From contig CAZGJX010000002.1 of the NCBI GenBank assembly GCA_964525635.1, forward strand, positions 76,124 through 113,366: a stretch of 37,243 nt of DNA, written 5' to 3'. This DNA is from an uncultured archaeon (GTDB taxonomy: Archaea > Asgardarchaeota > Lokiarchaeia > Sigyniarchaeales > SOKP01). A program made the translations under genes and the position numbers. Of this stretch, positions 17,718 through 35,324 are shown in pieces (the stretch's first letter is position 1; every line of letters begins with the position of its first letter). The notes under the pieces were generated by a model. That model was not told where the DNA came from, did not search any database, and saw only the letters and a list, made by a program, of their open reading frames with translations.

Positions 17718-20465
17718 TTAAACTAAGTTTAATTCTTCCCTTAATTCGATTAATTTTTGGTTTGATTCATCATCATCTGGATTATTTAATACCCTTTTTT
17801 GATAGAAAATTATATTTTCATATTTTAATTCTAATTTATTAAATATAGTTACCCAAGAATTAAAATTCTCTATCAAATTATTGACTTCTTTATCTTCAGC
17901 AAATGACTTTATATCTTTTTTTTTATCACTCATATAAGATATAGATTTATATTTCTTTAATGTAATACCTTGTTCTTTCAACAATTTTTTATTTATTCTA
18001 TTAATAAAGGCATCTAATTTACTTTTCCAAAAGACATAACTATCATTTATTCTATCGATTGCATCTTGTATAATTTTTATTTCTTTCGGAATAATTGTGG
18101 TTTCTTTATTGAGAATTGGTTTTATTTTATTAAATTCTGAATTGAATCTTCTTACATAATAATCTATAACTTTTTCAAATTCATCTAAATATGCATTATA
18201 ACCTTTAGCAAATACAATTTCATCACTAGTAAAAGTAAGGGTTTCATCATCAAATTTACCTTTAATTTTACCACCTTTATAGATTTCATTGAAAACTTCA
18301 GTAAGAAGGGATATTTCATCATCTGATAATGTCTTTCCGTAAAAAAAATCATGAAAAGAAAATAAAATTTTATTAGAAAGCATTAGATTTTTTAACCCAT
18401 TTTCAGTATAGAACTTAATATCATCATCCTCATAAATAATACCCCTAATTTCACCATTTGTTTGTAAATCCTCGATTAAATCTTTCATAATTTTTGAATT
18501 TATGTCAAAATTTCCCAGAGATATGAAATCAGTGTCTTTATAATCCCTTTTTAAGCTACGTATAATTTCTTTTTTAGCATTATCTATTTTTAAGGGATCA
18601 AATATTAAAAAATCTCCCCTCTTAAGATGATTTAAATTCAGGTCTTTGAGAAAATTAAGAAAGGATTTATAATCCATACCTGTTTTTTCTAAATATTCTG
18701 ATATCTTGATTTGGTCTTTCTTTTGAATCTCTTCTCCTATTAAGTTGATATTTTCATCCATTTTTTGAATAATTTGTTCTCTTTCAATATTTAATTCTCT
18801 GGAAAGTTTATTGATACGATCTAATTTTTCCTGCTGATCTATAATTAGGTTAATATCTTCAATTTTATCTTTCAAATATTTTGAGTAATAAAAAATTTCC
18901 CTGGATTTATTCCAAATTCCACTTCTTTCATCTATTTCTATAGTAAAAATATTCAATAATAATAATTCTTTTATGTTTAATTTTTCAGAAATTTTCTCTA
19001 CATCAAAAAAACCTATAATCTTTGAATTTTCTAATTCTTTTTTAAAACGAAAATTTCCAACATTAGTTAGCCAACTTGATCCTTTATGAAAATTTGTTAA
19101 ATAATCTTTAGGAAGATACTTTATAATCTTAATAAATGAATTTTCTGTAAAATTTTCTCTATAGTTTTTTAAATTAATACAATTCTCCTTTGCAGCTATT
19201 TCTCTTATTTCTTCCTCTATTTTTGATAAAATATAGAATTTTTTCTTTTCCTTGCCTACTATCATCTTATAATTGGATTCTTTTGATATTTTTTTTATAA
19301 TTTGAATTATATAATCTAATGGAAGATAATTAAAATCATCTAAATTAATGTAACCTCTTTCTTTAAAAGAACCAATAAATAAGGATTCAACATAAGGTGA
19401 TGGATAAAAATTTAATTCAGAGAGAAAACCGTTAATATGGTTTAATTTTAATAGAGTATTTAAAAATATTTTTAAATTAGGATTATCTAAAATGTCCGAG
19501 AATTTATCAAGTATCTCTTGATGTGATATCTTCCGATTTTGTTTGAAATAGTCGATTAATTTCTCTCTTTCTAATTCATAGAAATATAATTGGTTTTTTT
19601 CTAAATTTTTAATATAAAAGTAAATTTCTTTATCCTTTAAAATTGTTTTTTTGAAACTGTTCAAGTAGGTTTTAAAATCAATATTTTTATCTTTTTTTAC
19701 TTTTAAAAAATCATATTTGCATTTAATAAAAGTATTCTCCAGATTTTTTAATATGTTATCAATGTTCTCATATTCAAAATCTATATCTTTCATATCTATG
19801 AAGAGTTTTTTAACTAAATTAATCAAACATGATTTGAGATCAGAATTTGCTAAATTATAAAATTCCAAAATCGTTTTGCTGGCTAATTCTCTTAATCTAT
19901 ATAATTGCTTAAAATTATAATTTTCACATTTTTGCAGAAAGCTAATAAGAATAATGATATTTTCTATTTTTCCATCTATAATTTCTATATCCAATGATTT
20001 TATAAGATTATCTTTATAATTACATATTTCTTGTGGCTTTATTTCAACCATATTTTGTAAAAAAAAATAACAATTTTCTCTAACATCTTTAGTTGAGGTT
20101 GATAGCAGTTCAGTGAATTGAGAATAATAATTCCTATTTATAAGGTCAGGATTATTTAAAATAAAAAAACCTAAAATAGTTATTGAATTTAACTTTAATT
20201 TAATATTATTTGAGTAAAGAAAAGGCTCAATTTTATTTATCAAATCAATATTTAATAGGTCTGATTTTTGTTCAGCTAAAATACTTAAAATATAAGTAAT
20301 AGGGATTTTTAGATAATCATCTTGATCTAATAAGTTCTTCAGATCCTCTAATTCCGAAGATATATTTGAATATCTCTCTTTTTGGTAAAGTTTATTTATT
20401 TTTTTTATATATGGAATAAGTTTAGGATAATCTTGAAAATCTTCGATATTAAACATAGTTATCAT
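17718..20465 (-). CDS. large HEAT/ARM-repeat plus tandem winged-helix (PCI/UFL1-like) protein
   Basis: N-terminal HEAT-like helices (LLSTSTKDVRENC); repeated helix-helix-G.I.G..FY units; helical C-terminus. Confidence 0.6.
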   Translation of the reverse strand: MITMFNIEDFQDYPKLIPYIKKINKLYQKERYSNISSELEDLKNLLDQDDYLKIPITYILSILAEQKSDLLNIDLINKIEPFLYSNNIKLKLNSITILGFFILNNPDLINRNYYSQFTELLSTSTKDVRENCYFFLQNMVEIKPQEICNYKDNLIKSLDIEIIDGKIENIIILISFLQKCENYNFKQLYRLRELASKTILEFYNLANSDLKSCLINLVKKLFIDMKDIDFEYENIDNILKNLENTFIKCKYDFLKVKKDKNIDFKTYLNSFKKTILKDKEIYFYIKNLEKNQLYFYELEREKLIDYFKQNRKISHQEILDKFSDILDNPNLKIFLNTLLKLNHINGFLSELNFYPSPYVESLFIGSFKERGYINLDDFNYLPLDYIIQIIKKISKESNYKMIVGKEKKKFYILSKIEEEIREIAAKENCINLKNYRENFTENSFIKIIKYLPKDYLTNFHKGSSWLTNVGNFRFKKELENSKIIGFFDVEKISEKLNIKELLLLNIFTIEIDERSGIWNKSREIFYYSKYLKDKIEDINLIIDQQEKLDRINKLSRELNIEREQIIQKMDENINLIGEEIQKKDQIKISEYLEKTGMDYKSFLNFLKDLNLNHLKRGDFLIFDPLKIDNAKKEIIRSLKRDYKDTDFISLGNFDINSKIMKDLIEDLQTNGEIRGIIYEDDDIKFYTENGLKNLMLSNKILFSFHDFFYGKTLSDDEISLLTEVFNEIYKGGKIKGKFDDETLTFTSDEIVFAKGYNAYLDEFEKVIDYYVRRFNSEFNKIKPILNKETTIIPKEIKIIQDAIDRINDSYVFWKSKLDAFINRINKKLLKEQGITLKKYKSISYMSDKKKDIKSFAEDKEVNNLIENFNSWVTIFNKLELKYENIIFYQKRVLNNPDDDESNQKLIELREELNLV

Positions 20466-20617: not shown

Positions 20618-21277
20618 TCAAACGCTTTCATCTTCATCAACAGAGATATAACTTAAGAGTTTATCAATCCTATCTGCCTTTTTATTTATATTAAGAACAG
20701 TTGGCAAAACGATTACTTCATCTGTTTTTCCCGGTAATAAAGTAATTGATCCTGCTCTTAAGAATAAAAACTCGAAAACATCTGTTATAGTTTTCCTAAT
20801 TCTTAAATTTCCTGCAGGATATCTCTCTGCTGAAGTAATTATACCGCTTTTATGATATATTTCATTCTGTTCAATTTTCCAATAGTTAAATCGAGCATTT
20901 AAAACAACTATGCCTAAAACAAGCCCTAAGATTATTGTCATAATAAAATAGAATTCAGCGGTTATTCCAATATTAAATGGATCTCCAGAACCACCAAGGT
21001 CCACATTGGGTAATATTAGGAATATCATAGCAACAAGTACTATAACAATAAGCAATATTAGTATAAAGAATTTTGTCGATGAGAAGTCAAATGCTACTAC
21101 AAATATATTTGTAAAAAAAACAGCAGTCCAAACATATCCTAAAATATAGTTTGGATCATCCCCGATGACAAACTGAATAATCCATAATACTAAAGATGTT
21201 AAAAACACAGGATAGAAAAATATTACTTTAGGATAATTTCTTAAAAAAACTGCTTCTCCTTTTGTTTTTTGACTCAT
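20618..21277 (-). CDS. four-TM membrane protein with C-terminal bacterial PH-like domain
   Basis: Four hydrophobic segments, then YWKIEQNEIYHKSGII...FLRAGSITL. Confidence 0.6.
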   Translation of the reverse strand: MSQKTKGEAVFLRNYPKVIFFYPVFLTSLVLWIIQFVIGDDPNYILGYVWTAVFFTNIFVVAFDFSSTKFFILILLIVIVLVAMIFLILPNVDLGGSGDPFNIGITAEFYFIMTIILGLVLGIVVLNARFNYWKIEQNEIYHKSGIITSAERYPAGNLRIRKTITDVFEFLFLRAGSITLLPGKTDEVIVLPTVLNINKKADRIDKLLSYISVDEDESV

Positions 21278-22337: not shown

Positions 22338-22961
22338 TTAAAATTCAGTACCACATTTTTTACACACTTTCTTTTTAGCATACATGGGAAGATTACCAAT
22401 ATAACTTAATATTTTTGATTTATCTTCTGTAACTTTTATATCTTTACCAACAGCTCCACATTTAGGACATGTATCTCTCTCTTTTACTTCATCATTACTT
22501 AAAATAACTTCAGCAGGTTTTAATTCTTCTAATTCCTTTTTTGCTTCTTCAAGTTTTTTATTTAAATCTTCAATTACCTTATCTTTCTCTGAATTACTTT
22601 CTTCAAGGTCTTTTATTTTTTCATCTTTTTCTGAAATTGAATCAGTTAATTCTTCAATCTTTTTATTTAATTCTCCCATTTGTGAAATTGATTTGGAATT
22701 TAAGTCATTTGATTCTTCACATTTTTTCTTGAGTTGAGCATTTTCAGTTATTATGTTTTCTAAATTCTTTTTGATCTCATCCATTTCTGAATTTAAACTT
22801 TTTATCATGCTCTCAGAATTTTTAAAATCTTGACTTACCTTTTCATTTATTATTTTTACCTTGTCTAGTTCTTCTTTTGTTTGTTTTAATTCTTCTATAG
22901 TTTCCTCTAATTGTTTTTTAACTAGTTCATTTTCATCTATATCTGACATATTTGTAAACAC
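22338..22961 (-). CDS. coiled-coil protein with C-terminal zinc ribbon (true start possibly ATG at 22949)
   Basis: About 140 aa of heptad-rich E/K/L sequence, then CPKC...CKKCG. Confidence 0.85.
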   Translation of the reverse strand: MFTNMSDIDENELVKKQLEETIEELKQTKEELDKVKIINEKVSQDFKNSESMIKSLNSEMDEIKKNLENIITENAQLKKKCEESNDLNSKSISQMGELNKKIEELTDSISEKDEKIKDLEESNSEKDKVIEDLNKKLEEAKKELEELKPAEVILSNDEVKERDTCPKCGAVGKDIKVTEDKSKILSYIGNLPMYAKKKVCKKCGTEF

Positions 22962-24154: not shown

Positions 24155-25705
24155 ATGTCATTACCTACACCAGGCACTCCAATTATAATTGATATTGGTT
24201 CTGCATATGTTAAAGTGGGATTTGCTGGCGAAACAAGCCCTCGATATATATTTCCTTGTATAACAGGAACAGAAAAATATCACTCTGTTATGGTAGATGT
24301 AGATGCAAGAAATGTTTATGTAGGGCAGGATGCTATGAAAATGAGGGGTGTATTAAAAATCTCTCACCCTATTCAACGGGGATCTATAGCCGATTGGGAT
24401 AGTTACTATCAAATATTAAATCATATCCTATATACTCTTCTAAGAATAGAAAATCCATTAGATTATCCTATTTTATATGTTGAAAATCCATTTGAACCAA
24501 AAGATATAAAAGAATATATTGCAAGAGTATTCTTTGAAACCCATCAGATTAATAGTCTTATTATGGTTCCCTCACCTATTTTATCCTGTTTTTCTGTTGG
24601 ATTAACAACTGGATTAGTTATTGAAAGCGGAGATGGAATCACATGGATTGTTCCAATCATAAATGGACAAATCATATCACAAGCAGTACAAAGACTTAAT
24701 TTAGCCGGTATGGATGTAAGTAATAATTTGAAGGCTTTAATGATGAGAGAAGGAATTAATATTTCATCCTCAGCTCAAGATGAAATTATAAGAGAAATAA
24801 AAGAAAAAAATTGTTATTTTGTTATAGATCCAGAGCATCCCGGAAAGGCTGGTGATAACGTAGAATATCCAATGCCAGATGGTTCTACTGTAAAAATACA
24901 GGATCATATCCTCTATAATGCGACAGAAGTTTTATTCCAACCATCAATGATAGGTTCAAATTCACCTGGAATCCAGCACGCAATAATAACAGCTTTGCAA
25001 AATGTTAATCAAGAGAAGTGGAGTGAATTATTATCTCATATTGTACTTTCTGGAGGAAATCTTTCTCACAGTGGTTTTGAAGAGAGATTAAAAACAGAAT
25101 TGAATATATTATTACCACAATATGGAATAACAGTTAAATCAAAAGGTCGTGAAAAGAAAATAGAACAAAAAGTGGAAAGTCTTGAACCTATAAAAGGAAC
25201 AAAAAAAAACCAAGATAACTGTCCACAATGCGGTACTTTAGTTGATTTAACTAACAATATAACTAATTGTCCACAATGTGGTGCTAATATGCAAATGCCT
25301 CAAATTGATATCAACATAGACCAACAAAGTATTGATGAAACTCAAAACGCTGATTATATAAAATGCCCTAAATGTACAAAAGAAATATCAGATAAAGAAT
25401 CTTTATTTTGTCCATATTGTGGATATAATTTAACGGTGACTCCTACTCCTATTACCAAAAAGGAAATTGAATCAGTAAAGTTAAAGTCATCAGGAAAAAT
25501 TGGATTCAGTGAATATGCAGATTCTAAAAAAAGTGGTTTAAGATTCTTTATTCCTAATAATCTACAACTAGCTGTATATAATGGTGCTACAATTTTGGGA
25601 AGTTTGCCTTCTTTTAGAAATTTATTTATAACACGAGAACAATTTGAAATAAATAAAGAAATATTACATACAGATCTTTCTCAAATATTTGCAAATTATA
25701 CTTGA
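24155..25705 (+). CDS. actin-related protein with internal double zinc-ribbon insertion
   Basis: IIIDIGSAYVKVGFAGE, YVGQDA, FFETH, TTGLVIESGDG, IIREIKEK, YPMPDG, EVLFQPS, IVLSGG, GATILGSL; insert with four CxxC. Confidence 0.93.
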   Translation: MSLPTPGTPIIIDIGSAYVKVGFAGETSPRYIFPCITGTEKYHSVMVDVDARNVYVGQDAMKMRGVLKISHPIQRGSIADWDSYYQILNHILYTLLRIENPLDYPILYVENPFEPKDIKEYIARVFFETHQINSLIMVPSPILSCFSVGLTTGLVIESGDGITWIVPIINGQIISQAVQRLNLAGMDVSNNLKALMMREGINISSSAQDEIIREIKEKNCYFVIDPEHPGKAGDNVEYPMPDGSTVKIQDHILYNATEVLFQPSMIGSNSPGIQHAIITALQNVNQEKWSELLSHIVLSGGNLSHSGFEERLKTELNILLPQYGITVKSKGREKKIEQKVESLEPIKGTKKNQDNCPQCGTLVDLTNNITNCPQCGANMQMPQIDINIDQQSIDETQNADYIKCPKCTKEISDKESLFCPYCGYNLTVTPTPITKKEIESVKLKSSGKIGFSEYADSKKSGLRFFIPNNLQLAVYNGATILGSLPSFRNLFITREQFEINKEILHTDLSQIFANYT

Positions 25706-26017: not shown

Positions 26018-27106
26018 TTGAAAAGGAAAAACTATAAAAGATTGATTATATGCTTTTCTATGATATCTTTATTAATAATAACTCCATTGTCGTCTGCTAA
26101 AACGAGAAATAATTACTTAAAAAATTTTATTTTAGATAATAGGATTTCTGATTCTGGTGGATTTTCAAATGTTGTTGGTTCATGGTATGATTATGAAGTA
26201 ACATCTTATGCATTTGATATTTTAGATCATTATGATTTACTTAAAGAAAAAGTTGATCGTCCTGATACAGGAGAAAACATTGCTAAACTCATTAGTGATG
26301 CTATAACAAATGAATTCATTGATCTTAATATTCTTTATTTCCTACTGAATTCTTTAAATTGGATAAATCAAATTAATACAGCAATTAATTCGACTGTGAA
26401 AAGTAAAATTATAACATATCTCAATCAAACAGAACTAACAACTGGGGGATTTACAATAACTAATACAACTTCTTCACCAAATATTATTTCAACCTATTAT
26501 GGAATTAAAAGTTCTGAATTAATCGGACGTCCACTCAATTACACATATAGGAATATAATTTGGATTTTAGATTGTTATAATGCAGATGGAGGATTTGGAG
26601 GAAATGAAATTATGCAATCGACCCTTTTTACAACATACTATGCTGCTTTATCATTATCGGAATTAGGAAGTTTCTATAACTTATCTACTTTGGAAAATAT
26701 TCTTGAGTATACTAAAGCACATTATATTTCTACTGGAGGTTATAAACCTGACTTAGCTTCAGACATGGCTCTTTTAAGTAGTACATCTTATTGTATAAAA
26801 CTTATTTCAATGATTCCTGATGCTACGTATAATAGTAAAAGCTCAACAATTAGATGGATTTTAAATCAACAAAATATTATTGATGGGGGTTTCTCAAATC
26901 CATCTACTGAAGAAGAAATTAAAAGATCCTCTGTGATTTGTTCCTATTATGCATTCAATGCATTAAGAGAGTTAAGTGCTTTAAGTTATTTAGATGAAGA
27001 CATTGGAATAACGGAATTTAATTGGATTGTATTGCTAATTGTATTAGTGGTTATAGGAGTTGCTGTCGCTTTAGTTTTCTATATATGGAAAAGAAGACAA
27101 ATTTGA
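26018..27106 (+). CDS. secreted, membrane-anchored prenyltransferase-beta/squalene-cyclase repeat (alpha/alpha barrel) protein
   Basis: TTG start, signal peptide, five GGF/GGY repeats followed by TYY/SYY helices, C-terminal TM then WKRR. Confidence 0.8.
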   Translation: MKRKNYKRLIICFSMISLLIITPLSSAKTRNNYLKNFILDNRISDSGGFSNVVGSWYDYEVTSYAFDILDHYDLLKEKVDRPDTGENIAKLISDAITNEFIDLNILYFLLNSLNWINQINTAINSTVKSKIITYLNQTELTTGGFTITNTTSSPNIISTYYGIKSSELIGRPLNYTYRNIIWILDCYNADGGFGGNEIMQSTLFTTYYAALSLSELGSFYNLSTLENILEYTKAHYISTGGYKPDLASDMALLSSTSYCIKLISMIPDATYNSKSSTIRWILNQQNIIDGGFSNPSTEEEIKRSSVICSYYAFNALRELSALSYLDEDIGITEFNWIVLLIVLVVIGVAVALVFYIWKRRQI

Positions 27107-28090: not shown

Positions 28091-28552
28091 ATGGCTGTAC
28101 TTGAAATTGGAATTAATTTAGGAAATAGGAATATCTTTGAAATTCAATACTATACAGCTTCAACTAATCCCTTAGATCCTGACTTAAGAGCGGGATTTCT
28201 TTCTGCATTAGAAAGTTTCACATCAGAAGTTTTCGGTGATGATATAAATGTTGTTTCCTTGGCTTCTTTTAAATTAGTTTGTTATTCAGAATCGATTACT
28301 TTGCCTCTAGCAGAAGAAGCAGGTAGTAAACAAGCTTTATTATATTATGCAATTATTGAAAAAGAAACTGATACAGATGTTGTAAAAAAACATTTAATAG
28401 AAATTAATAAACACTTTTTAAACCGTTTTTCTTTGAATGATATCTTTTCTAAAAAGAAAAAATTTTTTGAAAAGAAGTTCACTGAAAGAATAGATAGTAT
28501 TTTAGGAGATTTAAAGTTAAAGACGGAGGATAGATTCAGATCTATATTTTAA
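28091..28552 (+). CDS. longin-like domain protein
   Basis: LRAGFLSALESFTSEVFGDDINVVSL matches the longin alpha1-beta3 pattern common in Asgard proteins; beta-beta-alpha-beta-beta-beta-alpha-alpha layout. Confidence 0.72.
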   Translation: MAVLEIGINLGNRNIFEIQYYTASTNPLDPDLRAGFLSALESFTSEVFGDDINVVSLASFKLVCYSESITLPLAEEAGSKQALLYYAIIEKETDTDVVKKHLIEINKHFLNRFSLNDIFSKKKKFFEKKFTERIDSILGDLKLKTEDRFRSIF

Positions 28553-28571
28553 ATCAAAAAGAGTGATTTAA

Positions 28572-29747
28572 TTGTCTTCTAACATCGGTCCCGAAGCAAA
28601 TGCAGCATATCAAAAATATCTGGATGCTGAATCCCTCGAGGAACAAATCAGATGTCTTGAAGAATTTATATCTTTAGTTCCTAAACATAAAGCAACAGAA
28701 AAAATTGTTGCATTAAATAAGTCTAAACTCGCTAAACTTAAAAGACAATTGGAGATAAAAAAAAAAAAATCACCCACTAAAGTTGTTAGTCCATTTTCTA
28801 TAAAAAAAGAGGGTATACAAATAATATTAATAAGTGATTATTATACTCCAGGGGTAGGGAAAACATCATTACTCAATTTTTTAACGAAAGCTGCCAAAGA
28901 TAAAATTGGTAGTTTTAATGCTCTCCCTGAAATAGGTATATATAATTATGAAAAGATAAGATTTCAAATTGTTGATATGCCTTCATTAATGAAAGGTGCA
29001 TCTAAGGGAGTTGCAAATGGAAAAGAAATAATATCACAAATTAGAGCATGTGACCTAATTTGTTTATGTATCGATTTAACGAGAAATATTGATGAACAAA
29101 TCGATTTATTATTTACAGAACTAAATAATGCAGACGTTAAATTAAATGAACCTCCACCTCCAATTGAGATTGAGAAAACCGGTTCTAATAATATTCAACT
29201 TTTTTATTTAACGACCGAATCTAAGGAAAATATGGAATTATCAGATAAGATAAAGGAGATTATTCGAGCTAATGGAATACAAAATTGTATTGTAAAATTA
29301 TATGGAAGAATAACAATTGATCAAATTCTTGACAAATTAAACCATTCTGTTGTCTATAAAAAAGCAATTATAATTGGAACTAAAGGTGATCTTCCCCATA
29401 CAGAAGAAAAGTTTGAGTTATTGGAAAAAAAGTATTCATATAATTTTAGGTTGGTAGCAACTAGTGTTCATAAAAGTATTTTTCCAGATAATTTTGGAGA
29501 ATTAGTATTACAATTGTTAAATAAAATTAGAATATATACTATGAATTCAGGTATTGTGGCTGAAAGACCCCTAATTATGAATGAAGAGGCAATGGTAAAA
29601 GATGTTGCATTGAAAATACACAGAACTTTTGTAGAGTTATTCGATTTTGCTACCGTTATAAGAGAGTCTGCTCGACAAAAACGTAAAAAAGTTGGTTTAG
29701 ATTATGAATTAGAGGATAAAGATAAAATTGAAATTCATACCATTTAA
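28572..29747 (+). CDS. DRG/OBG-family GTPase with C-terminal TGS domain, degenerate G motifs
   Basis: PKHKATE, VGKTSLL, QIVDMP, GASKG..NGKEII, VKDVALKIH, VGLDYELEDKDKIEI. Confidence 0.88.
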   Translation: MSSNIGPEANAAYQKYLDAESLEEQIRCLEEFISLVPKHKATEKIVALNKSKLAKLKRQLEIKKKKSPTKVVSPFSIKKEGIQIILISDYYTPGVGKTSLLNFLTKAAKDKIGSFNALPEIGIYNYEKIRFQIVDMPSLMKGASKGVANGKEIISQIRACDLICLCIDLTRNIDEQIDLLFTELNNADVKLNEPPPPIEIEKTGSNNIQLFYLTTESKENMELSDKIKEIIRANGIQNCIVKLYGRITIDQILDKLNHSVVYKKAIIIGTKGDLPHTEEKFELLEKKYSYNFRLVATSVHKSIFPDNFGELVLQLLNKIRIYTMNSGIVAERPLIMNEEAMVKDVALKIHRTFVELFDFATVIRESARQKRKKVGLDYELEDKDKIEIHTI

Positions 29748-33095: not shown

Positions 33096-34049
33096 ATGCC
33101 TGATGTAACTATAAAAACCCCGAATTTGGACGATATATTTGAAAAATGGAAACAAATTACCAGTCGTAAAGAAAGAAAAAAACTAGAAAAAGAATTTGGT
33201 ACTAAAGGAGCAGTTTTCTCACTCGATGTTATCTCTGCAGCTGAAACCGTAAAGGATACAATGAAAGAAGCCGCTATATATTTTGCAATTAAAAAATCCA
33301 TTGAACCCGTAAAAGAAGGAGAGAAAGAAATCGTTTTAAAAGCAGATAAAGTAAGTAAAGGGATATTTTTTAATTTTAAGAAAGATGTCCTTAAAGATAA
33401 TTGGAATGACGATGATTTGGTTCCATTTTATAATACTCTTAAACCAAAACCTTGTCAAAAATGCAATGGTAAAGGATATCATGAAGAAAAATGCAAGATC
33501 TGCGATGGAACAGGGAAAGTTATAGATAAAGTAATTGTATTAGAAGATGAAGAAAAAAACAAACTAAAAAAAGAGTTTCAATATTCCTGTGAAAATTGTT
33601 ATGGAATGGGTAATTTTAAAGAAAGATGTAAGGAATGTAATGGTGCTAAAAGTCTTTATACGTATCAACTTAAAGCTGTTCCGTTTAAGAGAGTTGTTTC
33701 AGGTCAACCTGTCTTACATAGTAGTGCAAAAACAAAATATGAGAAAGAAATTGAAAAAGATCTTCATCAATTAATTGATGAAGTAGAAGGAATTAAATTT
33801 AACGACTTTAAAACATTAACCAATAAAGCTGAAGCTTCATTAGGGTATTGGAATAAAAATATCAAAAAAACTATCTCTAGCGCTAGTTCGGATTATAAAA
33901 CGTATGAAAAAGATAAAGATACAAAAATCGAAACGAAAATATCTTTGTTTCCAATGATTCAGATGTTTTGTGAGTCTAAGAAAGGAAAATCTTTTGAAAT
34001 TTATTCAATAGGTTCAGATAAAAAGTTTATTGTGTATTCTAATTTTTAA
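33096..34049 (+). CDS. DnaJ-type CxxCxGxG zinc-finger protein lacking a J domain (SSUH2-like)
   Basis: CQKCNGKG, CKICDGTG, CENCYGMG, CKECNGAK; no HPD motif. Confidence 0.8.
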   Translation: MPDVTIKTPNLDDIFEKWKQITSRKERKKLEKEFGTKGAVFSLDVISAAETVKDTMKEAAIYFAIKKSIEPVKEGEKEIVLKADKVSKGIFFNFKKDVLKDNWNDDDLVPFYNTLKPKPCQKCNGKGYHEEKCKICDGTGKVIDKVIVLEDEEKNKLKKEFQYSCENCYGMGNFKERCKECNGAKSLYTYQLKAVPFKRVVSGQPVLHSSAKTKYEKEIEKDLHQLIDEVEGIKFNDFKTLTNKAEASLGYWNKNIKKTISSASSDYKTYEKDKDTKIETKISLFPMIQMFCESKKGKSFEIYSIGSDKKFIVYSNF

Positions 34050-34343: not shown

Positions 34344-35324
34344 ATGATTCAAGAAGATATAGACGCAGACTCTTTTAAAATTAGAATGAAACTAATAGAA
34401 GAATTCCCAAAATTTATTCCTGAATTAAACTATAACTCAAATAATCAGTTAGCAATAAATAAAATAAGTTTTAAAGCCCGTCTACTAAGTAATTTTTTCT
34501 ATAAGCGAATAGAAAAGAATGATCTTATTTATTTTAAGTATCGAAGTGGAAAAATACAATTCATGCCACTATTTAGTTTAACAAAAGCATTAGCTTGTTA
34601 TAATGATTACATAAAAAAAAAAGATAAAAATGACCTCAAATCTTTTATAAAAATATCTGAATTGATGATTAAGAAACTTGAAAAGAGAAATAGTATAAAT
34701 GGTTGGTTATTCAAAAAAAAAATTATTATGGCAGGATATCCCCCTGCTACGAATAGTTATTCTGCTTTGTTCAATGCACGCGGATTGAGTGTTTTAATAA
34801 GATATTATCAATTCCAAAAAAGTAAAACATTATTAAAACAAATAGAAGAAATACTTAATTCTTTCGAAATTGAAAGTAATAAAGGAGGGGTGCTTAAAAA
34901 AAAAGGAAAAGATAAATGGTATCTAGAGTATTCTTATGGAAATAATACTCCTGTTGTATATAATGGTTTTTTAAGCGCACTTATAGGGCTCTATGAAACA
35001 AGTCAATTTGGGCCAGTAGAAATAAGAAAAAAAGCAAATACACTGTTTAACGACGGTCTTAAAACTCTTGAAAATAATATTGAGAATATCATTATGAAAA
35101 ATTCTCTATTAACATGGTTAAGATATGATGATAATAAGCAATTTTTTGCAGATGGTAACTATTTCAATATTAAACTTAAACAAATTAAATATTTATATTC
35201 TAAGACAAATAATATAAAACTTTTGACAACCATAAATCATTGGGAAAATATATATAAAAAAAACAAATGGAAAGCAAATTTATATGAATGGTTTTATTTT
35301 ATATATAAAAAACTCACTAGATAA
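34344..35324 (+). CDS. D-glucuronyl C5-epimerase C-terminal domain protein
   Basis: YSALFNARGLSVLIRYY, KGGV, WYLEYS, VYNGFLSALIGLYE, LFNDGLKTL, WLRYD. Confidence 0.82.
   Translation: MIQEDIDADSFKIRMKLIEEFPKFIPELNYNSNNQLAINKISFKARLLSNFFYKRIEKNDLIYFKYRSGKIQFMPLFSLTKALACYNDYIKKKDKNDLKSFIKISELMIKKLEKRNSINGWLFKKKIIMAGYPPATNSYSALFNARGLSVLIRYYQFQKSKTLLKQIEEILNSFEIESNKGGVLKKKGKDKWYLEYSYGNNTPVVYNGFLSALIGLYETSQFGPVEIRKKANTLFNDGLKTLENNIENIIMKNSLLTWLRYDDNKQFFADGNYFNIKLKQIKYLYSKTNNIKLLTTINHWENIYKKNKWKANLYEWFYFIYKKLTR

What the first reader, a model, noticed from the sequence alone, without database searches (positions are those of the whole stretch)
24155..25705. Actin-related protein with a ~135-aa double zinc-ribbon insert
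Seen: all actin core motifs are present. Between GFEERLKTELNILL and LRFFIP...GATILGSL, where conventional actin has only the short APSTMK loop (about residues 321-326, subdomain 3), there are ~135 extra residues (about 25120-25537). They hold two Zn ribbons: CPQC-x12-CPQC and CPKC-x11-CPYC. Known: eukaryotic Arps gain specialised functions through loop insertions in the actin fold. Inference: this is an Arp-like specialised paralog in which the ribbons recruit partners, membrane or nucleic acid, or cap/nucleate Lokiactin filaments. I know of no characterised actin with Zn ribbons inside the fold.
Basis: partly seen in the sequence, partly recalled or inferred. Interest (0 to 1): 0.88.

Follow-up and report, generated by a model that had tools for sequence, protein, structure and literature searches.

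The report
Lokiarchaeal zinc-ribbon actin-related protein
This is a real actin-like protein kept across one whole order of Asgard archaea, with zinc-binding modules spliced into a filament-contact loop; it has kept only one of actin's two stacking faces, so it may cap the growing end of the archaeal actin filament, which can be tested in cultured strains.

Summary
Observation confirmed. ORF 24155-25705 (516 aa) is an actin-fold protein with about 136 extra residues at actin loop 322-326, holding two C4 zinc ribbons on flexible linkers. It is no artefact: 120/120 close homologs keep all eight cysteines, an independent contig spans both insert junctions, and orthologs occur in 88 of 90 other genomes of this order but in none found outside it. 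Cultured members are L. ossiferum UYP44711.1 (one ribbon) and P. syntrophicum QEE17409.1. New here: F-actin contact residues of the pointed face (K39, M44, R62, V64, D244) are at least 97% kept, while their barbed-face partners (E167, F169, H173, D288, R290) are lost and the insert sits on that face. A second Arp of the same genomes shows the mirror pattern (p about 0.02-0.05). Best reading (about 0.4): a non-polymerising Arp that docks on Lokiactin barbed ends as a cap carrying adaptor ribbons; an Arp2/3-like nucleator is unlikely. No paper describing the insert was found. This scan has reported the family before in at least 16 other genomes.

The parts
24155..25705 (+). Gene for the zinc-ribbon actin-related protein (ZR-Arp), 516 aa
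   Evidence: ORF; PF00022 248 bits; AlphaFold2 model pLDDT 80.4, pTM 0.72; Foldseek TM by target about 0.90 to actin
24176..25120 (+). Actin core, N-terminal part (residues 8-322): phosphate-1, phosphate-2 and adenosine motifs, subdomains 1-4
   Evidence: phmmer against PDB actins E 1e-74 to 1e-66; dN/dS about 0.06-0.07 for the whole core against same-genus orthologs
24272..24310 (+). Lokiactin-like D-loop (residues 40-52), the retained pointed-face contact; K41 and M46 equal actin R/K39 and M44
   Evidence: K39 97% K plus 3% R, M44 98% in 218 family members, weighted
24572..24646 (+). Span holding the replaced hydrolysis residues: S140 (actin Q137), E157 (D154), W164 (H161). The sensor H73 is R75 at 24377-24379
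   Evidence: Lokiactins keep Q137, D154, H161 and H73 at 100%
25004..25036 (+). Subdomain-3 barbed-face segment (actin 285-294), degenerate: D288 variable, R290 mostly W (W289)
   Evidence: R290 is W 75%, R 7%; D288 has no consensus; Lokiactin R 100% and D 93%
25121..25537 (+). Insert (residues 323-461) replacing actin loop 323-326: linker, ribbon 1, linker, ribbon 2, acidic linker
   Evidence: insert 97-210 aa, median 132, over 218 members; linkers pLDDT under 50
25220..25282 (+). Zinc ribbon 1 (C356, C359, C372, C375), present in every family member; flanked by conserved hydrophobic motifs [LM]-x-x-[VI] before and Q-I-x-I after
   Evidence: pLDDT about 75-78
25364..25423 (+). Zinc ribbon 2 (C404, C407, C419, C422), absent from some lineages including L. 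ossiferum and family f32
   Evidence: 198 of 210 proteins have four CxxC, 10 have two; four f32 genomes have one ribbon
25538..25705 (+). Actin core, C-terminal part (462-516), with a conserved extension of about 4 residues (S509 to F512) beyond the F375 position
26018..27106 (+). Conserved downstream neighbour: alpha/alpha-toroid (PF00432) protein with an N-terminal signal-like segment, a C-terminal membrane helix and a basic tail of about 5 residues
   Evidence: immediately downstream on the same strand in 28 of 30 other loci across all four families. A functional link is not shown.

Best explanation
ZR-Arp is a nucleotide-binding, probably hydrolysis-poor actin-related protein that cannot stack on itself. 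It adds to the barbed end of a Lokiactin filament like a normal monomer, using its retained D-loop and subdomain 2/4 contacts, and then stops growth because its own barbed face has lost the partner residues and carries a 136-residue insert. It is the mirror image of dynactin Arp11. The tethered zinc ribbons, a promiscuous module in this genome, would then project from the capped end as adaptors that recruit a partner protein and place or regulate the filament end. Shown: fold, insert site, conservation, residue asymmetry, distribution. Inferred: zinc and ATP binding, low ATPase activity, Lokiactin binding, capping, adaptor role.
For: Contact residues were taken from the F-actin cryo-EM paper 10.1101/309534. 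Pointed-side members K39, M44, R62, V64 and D244 are 97-100% kept. The fraction similar to Lokiactin is 0.79 (pointed) against 0.50 (barbed), p=0.037; loss relative to Lokiactins p=0.024. Lokiactins keep both faces (0.98/0.96). The C8-type Arp of the same genomes is the reverse (keeps Y143, Y169, H173, D286, D288, R290; loses M44 and R62), interaction p=0.02-0.045 (0.005-0.03 with broader sets). [quoted passage not shown] ZR-Arp occurs in four f32 genomes where no C8-type Arp was found, which leaves Lokiactin as the likeliest partner. The same face logic was used to propose pointed-end capping by Arp11 (PMC2174220). The L. ossiferum ortholog was assayed by RT-qPCR and Lokiactin is several-fold higher (PMC9834061), as expected of a sub-stoichiometric factor.
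Against: No binding data. The statistics are modest, several residue sets were tried, residues are not independent, and some comparisons were not significant (BLOSUM on the 12+12 set p=0.14; broad sets p=0.08-0.12). Some pointed-face residues are not kept: E205 is K/Q, P38 is E in half, and the 199-202 stretch is deleted in the family of the cultured strains. D244 is invariant in all four actin families, so it is uninformative. The M44 pocket and cleft core (F143, T148, I165, I345, L346, L349) are retained, so the barbed cleft may still bind something. The text of the L. ossiferum Lokiactin co-IP names a profilin, gelsolins and an ARF GTPase as enriched but no Arp (PMC13716822 and its preprint; the full table was not available). 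The f32 genomes are only 63-88% complete.
Confidence: 0.4

Rival explanations
1. A monomeric ATP-bound scaffold in a complex that is not a filament, working like eukaryotic Arp4/Arp8. The conserved pointed face binds some non-actin partner and the ribbons bind further proteins or nucleic acid.
For: H73 to R and loss of Q137 and H161 parallel human Arp8, whose flexible loop insertions are thought to explain its failure to polymerise and may mediate protein contacts (PMC3510490). No Arp is named among the Lokiactin co-IP hits.
Against: Arp8 covers its pointed end with insertions, whereas ZR-Arp keeps a Lokiactin-like D-loop of normal length and the specific filament-contact residues. The insert is not basic. 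No chromatin-type genes are among the conserved neighbours.
Confidence: 0.25
2. ZR-Arp binds actin-fold partners through its pointed face but not at filament ends: a closed heterodimer with the mirror-image C8-type Arp, or a sequesterer of Lokiactin monomers.
For: The faces are complementary: ZR keeps the pointed side and C8 the barbed side. Both occur together in most f1 and f2 genomes.
Against: No C8-type Arp was found in four f32 genomes that all carry ZR-Arp (genomes incomplete). The two genes are not linked.
Confidence: 0.15
3. A link between the cytoskeleton and the cell envelope: ZR-Arp works with the downstream membrane-anchored alpha/alpha-barrel protein. This is compatible with capping.
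For: The neighbour is adjacent and co-oriented in 28 of 30 other loci, including three f32 loci where the ModE-like and FolD neighbours were not seen. A neighbour of the C8 Arp is kept in only 3 of 11 f2 loci.
Against: Gene order is generally stable in this family (C10 Arp neighbours 27-29 of 29). The unrelated FolD gene is also kept in f1 and f2. The neighbour's predicted cytoplasmic tail is only about 5 residues. The intergenic gap here is over 300 bp.
Confidence: 0.2
4. An Arp2/3-like nucleator that presents a free barbed end to template a new Lokiactin filament (one of the first reader's options).
For: It is a conserved Arp in organisms with dynamic actin protrusions. The cleft core residues F143, T148, I165, I345 and L346 are kept.
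Against: The barbed-face partners E167, Y/F169, H173, D288 and R290 are lost and the insert lies on that face. The C8-type Arp fits this role better.
Confidence: 0.07
5. A second, self-polymerising actin with a re-engineered interface, decorated by flexible ribbons.
For: The core is under strong purifying selection; the D-loop and the M44 pocket are both kept; the insert linkers are flexible and could loop out.
Against: The salt-bridge pairs R62-D288 and D244-R290 are broken on one side with no compensating change. The hydrolysis residues are lost. The barbed-face positions vary within the family, unlike a polymer interface.
Confidence: 0.1
6. Assembly chimera or chance cysteines.
For: None.
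Against: 120/120 homologs; 88 of 90 genomes of the order; two closed genomes of cultured strains; an independent contig across both junctions.
Confidence: 0.01

Closest known systems
Ca. Lokiarchaeum ossiferum ARP UYP44711.1 (NEF87_000996) and Promethearchaeum syntrophicum QEE17409.1
   Same: Orthologs: same clade, same insert site, same gene neighbours. UYP44711.1 is one of the three non-Lokiactin homologues placed among the ARPs and assayed by RT-qPCR in PMC9834061.
   Different: The paper does not mention zinc or the insert and is the only one found citing this accession. The L. ossiferum protein has one ribbon (499 aa). Neither protein is characterised.
Lokiactin / eukaryotic actin (PF00022; solved relative 'HC1 actin', PDB 9wc4)
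   Same: Fold (TM by target about 0.9), nucleotide-binding skeleton, D-loop and pointed-face contacts.
   Different: About 35% identity; insert of about 136 aa; Q137, H161 and H73 replaced; barbed-face contacts lost; restricted to one order.
Dynactin Arp11
   Same: An Arp that keeps one filament face and loses the other, and so was proposed to cap a filament (PMC2174220).
   Different: Opposite polarity (Arp11 keeps the barbed face and lacks residues 38-57), no zinc ribbons, part of dynactin. No orthology is claimed.
Nuclear Arp8 / Arp4
   Same: Large flexible loop insertions; H73 to R; Q137 and H161 substituted; non-polymerising (PMC3510490).
   Different: The large Arp8 insertions are in the D-loop and hydrophobic plug and cover the pointed end; only a 5-residue insertion lies at the subdomain-3 barbed end. 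No zinc ribbons; INO80 context.

Membership tests
Actin family (PF00022) | Profile score over the curated cut-off | tested here: met
   248 bits against a cut-off of 27
Actin family (PF00022) | Four-subdomain actin fold | tested here: met
   AlphaFold2 model and Foldseek, TM by target 0.87-0.92
Actin family (PF00022) | Phosphate-1, phosphate-2 and adenosine motifs | tested here: met
   D11, G13, K18, G156, G158, K213, E214, G301 and G302 kept at 93-100%
Lokiactin | Falls in the Lokiactin clade with high identity | tested here: not met
   35% mean identity; separate clade; the genome has its own Lokiactin, 89-100% identical across the order
Lokiactin | Catalytic Q137 and H161, sensor H73 | tested here: not met
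   S/T/A, W/T/H and R; 100% kept in Lokiactins
Lokiactin | Both longitudinal filament faces conserved | tested here: not met
   pointed 0.79, barbed 0.50, against 0.98 and 0.96 in Lokiactins
Lokiactin | Forms double-helical filaments | not testable with these tools
   needs purified protein
Asgard actin-related proteins (ARPs sensu PMC9834061) | Divergent actin paralog outside the Lokiactin group in an Asgard genome | tested here: met
   ortholog UYP44711.1 is one of the paper's three ARPs; tree
Arp2/Arp3-type nucleator | Intact barbed face for daughter-filament growth | tested here: not met
   E167, Y169, H173, D288 and R290 lost; insert on that face
Arp2/Arp3-type nucleator | Orthology to eukaryotic Arp2 or Arp3; ARPC subunits | not tested
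Arp11-type cap | Barbed face kept, D-loop region deleted | tested here: not met
   the reverse pattern; it may work like a cap but is not an Arp11
C4 zinc ribbon (PF13240, PF13248, PF12773) | CxxC-x10-12-CxxCG knuckles over the cut-off | tested here: met
C4 zinc ribbon (PF13240, PF13248, PF12773) | Binds zinc | not testable with these tools
   needs ICP-MS or a PAR assay; iron is not excluded

The most novel reading that the evidence does not exclude
Lokiarchaeia of this order use a pair of mirror-image Arps to finish Lokiactin filaments: ZR-Arp as a barbed-end cap built from an actin fold and carrying zinc-ribbon adaptors (I know of no eukaryotic Arp that caps barbed ends; eukaryotes use CapZ or gelsolin), and the C8-type Arp as a pointed-end cap or nucleator. 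This would be a dynactin-like, Arp-terminated filament logic evolved independently in archaea.
Probability: 0.2. Interest if true: 0.88.

Novelty: new variant of a known kind. Interest (0 to 1): 0.62.

Why it matters
How Asgard archaea regulate their actin filaments is open. Published work points mainly to gelsolins and profilins, and the Arp paralogs have no assigned function. This family is near-universal in the order that holds the cultured Lokiarchaeia, has an architecture I could not find described, and shows a residue pattern that gives a sharp prediction: barbed-end capping that depends on the D-loop, with the second Arp acting at the opposite end. A positive result would show Arp-based control of filament ends in archaea. 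The family is confined to one order that is not the closest to eukaryotes, so it is a lineage innovation and probably not the ancestor of a eukaryotic Arp, which limits its weight for eukaryogenesis.

Tried and rejected
ESM Atlas feature search of the insert gave no usable hit; the structure search returned only the family's own unnamed cluster and ordinary actins. A second AlphaFold2 model (Harpocratesius ortholog, 9 rows) had pLDDT 58.6 and was uninformative. Sequencing runs: no RNA holder listed. The sigma-70 promoter and terminator scan was at chance level and is not suited to archaea. The Lokiactin control was distorted by one mis-assigned partial actin (L171) and was rerun without it; only the corrected values are used. 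A first MAFFT alignment of the four own actins misplaced the insert boundary; the boundary was taken. The tree is a quick IQ-TREE run with SH-aLRT only, midpoint-drawn, without verified eukaryotic Arp references, so it shows that ZR-Arps form one group but not their sister group. Co-IP supplementary tables were not held. Two PMC ids recalled from memory were not held. NCBI labels such as Thor-, Hod- or Heimdallarchaeota on a few homologs at 55-59% identity were not accepted as wider distribution, because the genome survey found no long form outside the order; mis-binning or mislabelling is the likelier cause but was not tested.

Full report
Observation. The window holds an ORF at 24155-25705 (+) of 516 aa that scores 248 bits on Pfam Actin. 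Against solved actins it aligns as residues 3/10-322 and 462-505, which are nearly contiguous in actin. P321 matches actin P322 and L462 matches I327, so about 136 residues are added at the subdomain-3 loop (window 25121-25537). The four CxxC pairs lie at 356, 372, 404 and 419 and pass several zinc-ribbon cut-offs. The AlphaFold2 model (pLDDT 80.4) has a confident actin core, two moderately confident ribbons (about 75-78) and linkers under 50. Foldseek gives TM by target of about 0.9 to actins.

Reality and spread. All 120 best homologs carry four CxxC. In a wider set of 210, 198 have four and 10 have two. A contig from another salt-marsh sample covers both insert junctions without differences. 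Against same-genus orthologs, dN/dS is about 0.06-0.07 in the core, 0.12-0.22 in the ribbons and 0.4-0.5 in the linkers. The genome has four actins: Lokiactin, this protein, and two further Arps called C8 and C10 here. The long form was found in 70/71 other genomes of the own family, 13/14 of family f2 (three split over contig ends), 1/1 of f31 and 4/4 of f32. It was not found in about 225 genomes of other Asgard orders, whose listed best hits are ordinary actins ending at query residue 328 or earlier. Named members are Ca. Harpocratesius repetitus MCF2140085.1, P. syntrophicum QEE17409.1 and L. ossiferum UYP44711.1, which has one ribbon. With the insert removed, the family is one group (SH-aLRT 99), separate from Lokiactins and from the C8 and C10 Arps. 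Ribbon 1 is universal and flanked by conserved hydrophobic motifs; ribbon 2 is missing in some lineages. Similar ribbons occur in about 31 ORFs of this genome, so the module is promiscuous and does not name its ligand.

Active site. The binding skeleton is kept, but Q137 is S/T/A, H161 is W/T/H, H73 is always R, D154 is E and G15 mostly A. Lokiactins keep Q137, H161, H73 and D154 fully. Q137 and H161 position the attacking water in F-actin (10.1101/309534). Human Arp8 has similar changes, binds ATP stably and has only low basal ATPase activity (PMC3510490). I infer ATP binding with little polymer-coupled hydrolysis.

Filament faces. In F-actin, subdomains 2 and 4 of one subunit contact subdomain 3 of the neighbour toward the pointed end through R39-D286, K61-E167, R62-D288, D244-R290, M44 in a pocket, and P38/I64 on Y169. 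I mapped these named residues onto 218 ZR-Arps, 42 C8 Arps, 32 C10 Arps and 31 Lokiactins with sequence weighting. ZR-Arps keep K39, M44, R62, V64 and D244 at 97-100% but lose E167, F169, H173, E270, D288 and R290. The fraction similar to Lokiactin is 0.79 on the pointed side and 0.50 on the barbed side (p=0.037); Lokiactins give 0.98 and 0.96. C8 Arps are the reverse (0.70 and 0.90), losing M44 and R62 and keeping Y143, Y169, H173, D286, D288 and R290; the ZR-minus-C8 interaction has p=0.02-0.045. C10 Arps keep neither face. Broader residue sets chosen from memory give the same direction with p from 0.005 to 0.12. These tests are modest, residues are not independent, E205 and the 199-202 stretch are not kept, and the core of the barbed cleft is retained.

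Mechanism. A subunit with a working pointed face and a dead, insert-bearing barbed face can add to a barbed end but accept nothing further. This is the mirror image of the argument used for Arp11 at the pointed end of the dynactin filament (PMC2174220). ZR-Arp occurs in f32 genomes where no C8 Arp was found (incomplete genomes), which favours Lokiactin as its partner. I put barbed-end cap with ribbon adaptors at 0.4, non-filament scaffold at 0.25, Arp heterodimer or monomer sequestration at 0.15, self-polymer at 0.1 and Arp2/3-like nucleator at 0.07. Against the cap, the text of the L. ossiferum Lokiactin co-IP names no Arp among the enriched proteins; a one-per-filament cap could be missed, and the table was unavailable.

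Neighbourhood. The order ModE-like HTH, (CBS), ZR-Arp, alpha/alpha-barrel membrane protein, FolD is kept in f1 and f2. The barrel gene follows directly in 28 of 30 other loci, including f31 and f32. Gene order is generally stable within the family, FolD is probably a bystander, and the barrel's cytoplasmic tail is about 5 residues, so an envelope link stays at about 0.2.

What is known. PMC9834061 lists UYP44711.1 among three ARPs, measured by RT-qPCR with Lokiactin several-fold higher, without mentioning zinc or the insert. It is the only paper found with that accession, and keyword searches found no description of the architecture. NCBI names most members only 'zinc ribbon domain-containing protein'. 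The library lacks most subscription papers, so prior notice cannot be excluded. Earlier agents of this scan reported the same family in at least 16 other genomes. Their notes agree on reality, lost hydrolysis residues and the membrane neighbour, all of which I tested here; a look-up for the face-asymmetry reading found no note holding all the words.

Verdict. A real, order-wide, uncharacterised Asgard Arp subfamily with a new domain architecture: a new variant of a known kind. Interest 0.62. The cap hypothesis is specific and testable in cultured strains but rests on sequence patterns only.

Noticed in passing
L002 (G000:C8:15810-16922, minus) and orthologs L085-L113, L192-L204: A second Arp of the same order (371 aa) keeps the barbed-face filament contacts (Y143, Y169, H173, D286, D288, R290) but has lost M44 and R62 and has Q137 to D/G and H161 to R: a candidate pointed-end cap or nucleator, the mirror image of ZR-Arp. 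Present in f1 and f2, not found in f32.
   Followed up: partly
L004 (G000:C10:13853-15016, plus): A third Arp (388 aa), found at the threshold used only in family f1, has lost both filament faces but shares R290 to W with ZR-Arp and has very stable neighbours.
   Followed up: partly
G186:C652, G252:C26, G132:C84 and others: About a quarter of family-f1 genomes carry a second Lokiactin-like copy at 80-84% identity, while the main Lokiactin is 95-100% identical within the family.
   Followed up: no
L222-L225 (G002, G014) and L226, L227 (G294, G237): Other Asgard lineages have long actins of other kinds: 693-754 aa forms lacking the N-terminal actin part (L222 has two Actin-profile stretches), and 777-853 aa forms with an N-terminal actin and a C-terminal region without a Pfam hit.
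   Followed up: partly
window 22338-22961 (minus): A coiled-coil protein of 207 aa ending in a single C4 zinc ribbon, divergent from the ModE-like gene two genes upstream of ZR-Arp; not seen at this position in the 20 related loci compared.
   Followed up: partly
window 28091-29747 (plus): A 153-aa protein without a Pfam hit (longin- or roadblock-like by eye, untested) directly before an Obg/DRG-like GTPase with a TGS domain; the pair is conserved in family f1.
   Followed up: no
window 17718-20465 (minus) and 20618-21277 (minus): Two proteins (915 aa and 219 aa) with no Pfam or NCBIfam hit that are conserved upstream of the locus in family f1.
   Followed up: no
window 26018-27106 (plus); paralogs on G000 C3, C4, C44: The membrane-anchored alpha/alpha-barrel protein ends in a basic tail, usually ending R/K-I, directly after its membrane helix, possibly a sorting signal; three paralogs occur in the genome.
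   Followed up: partly
window 34344-35324 (plus) and 33096-34049 (plus): A D-glucuronyl C5-epimerase C-terminal domain protein and a protein with a DnaJ-type central zinc domain.
   Followed up: no
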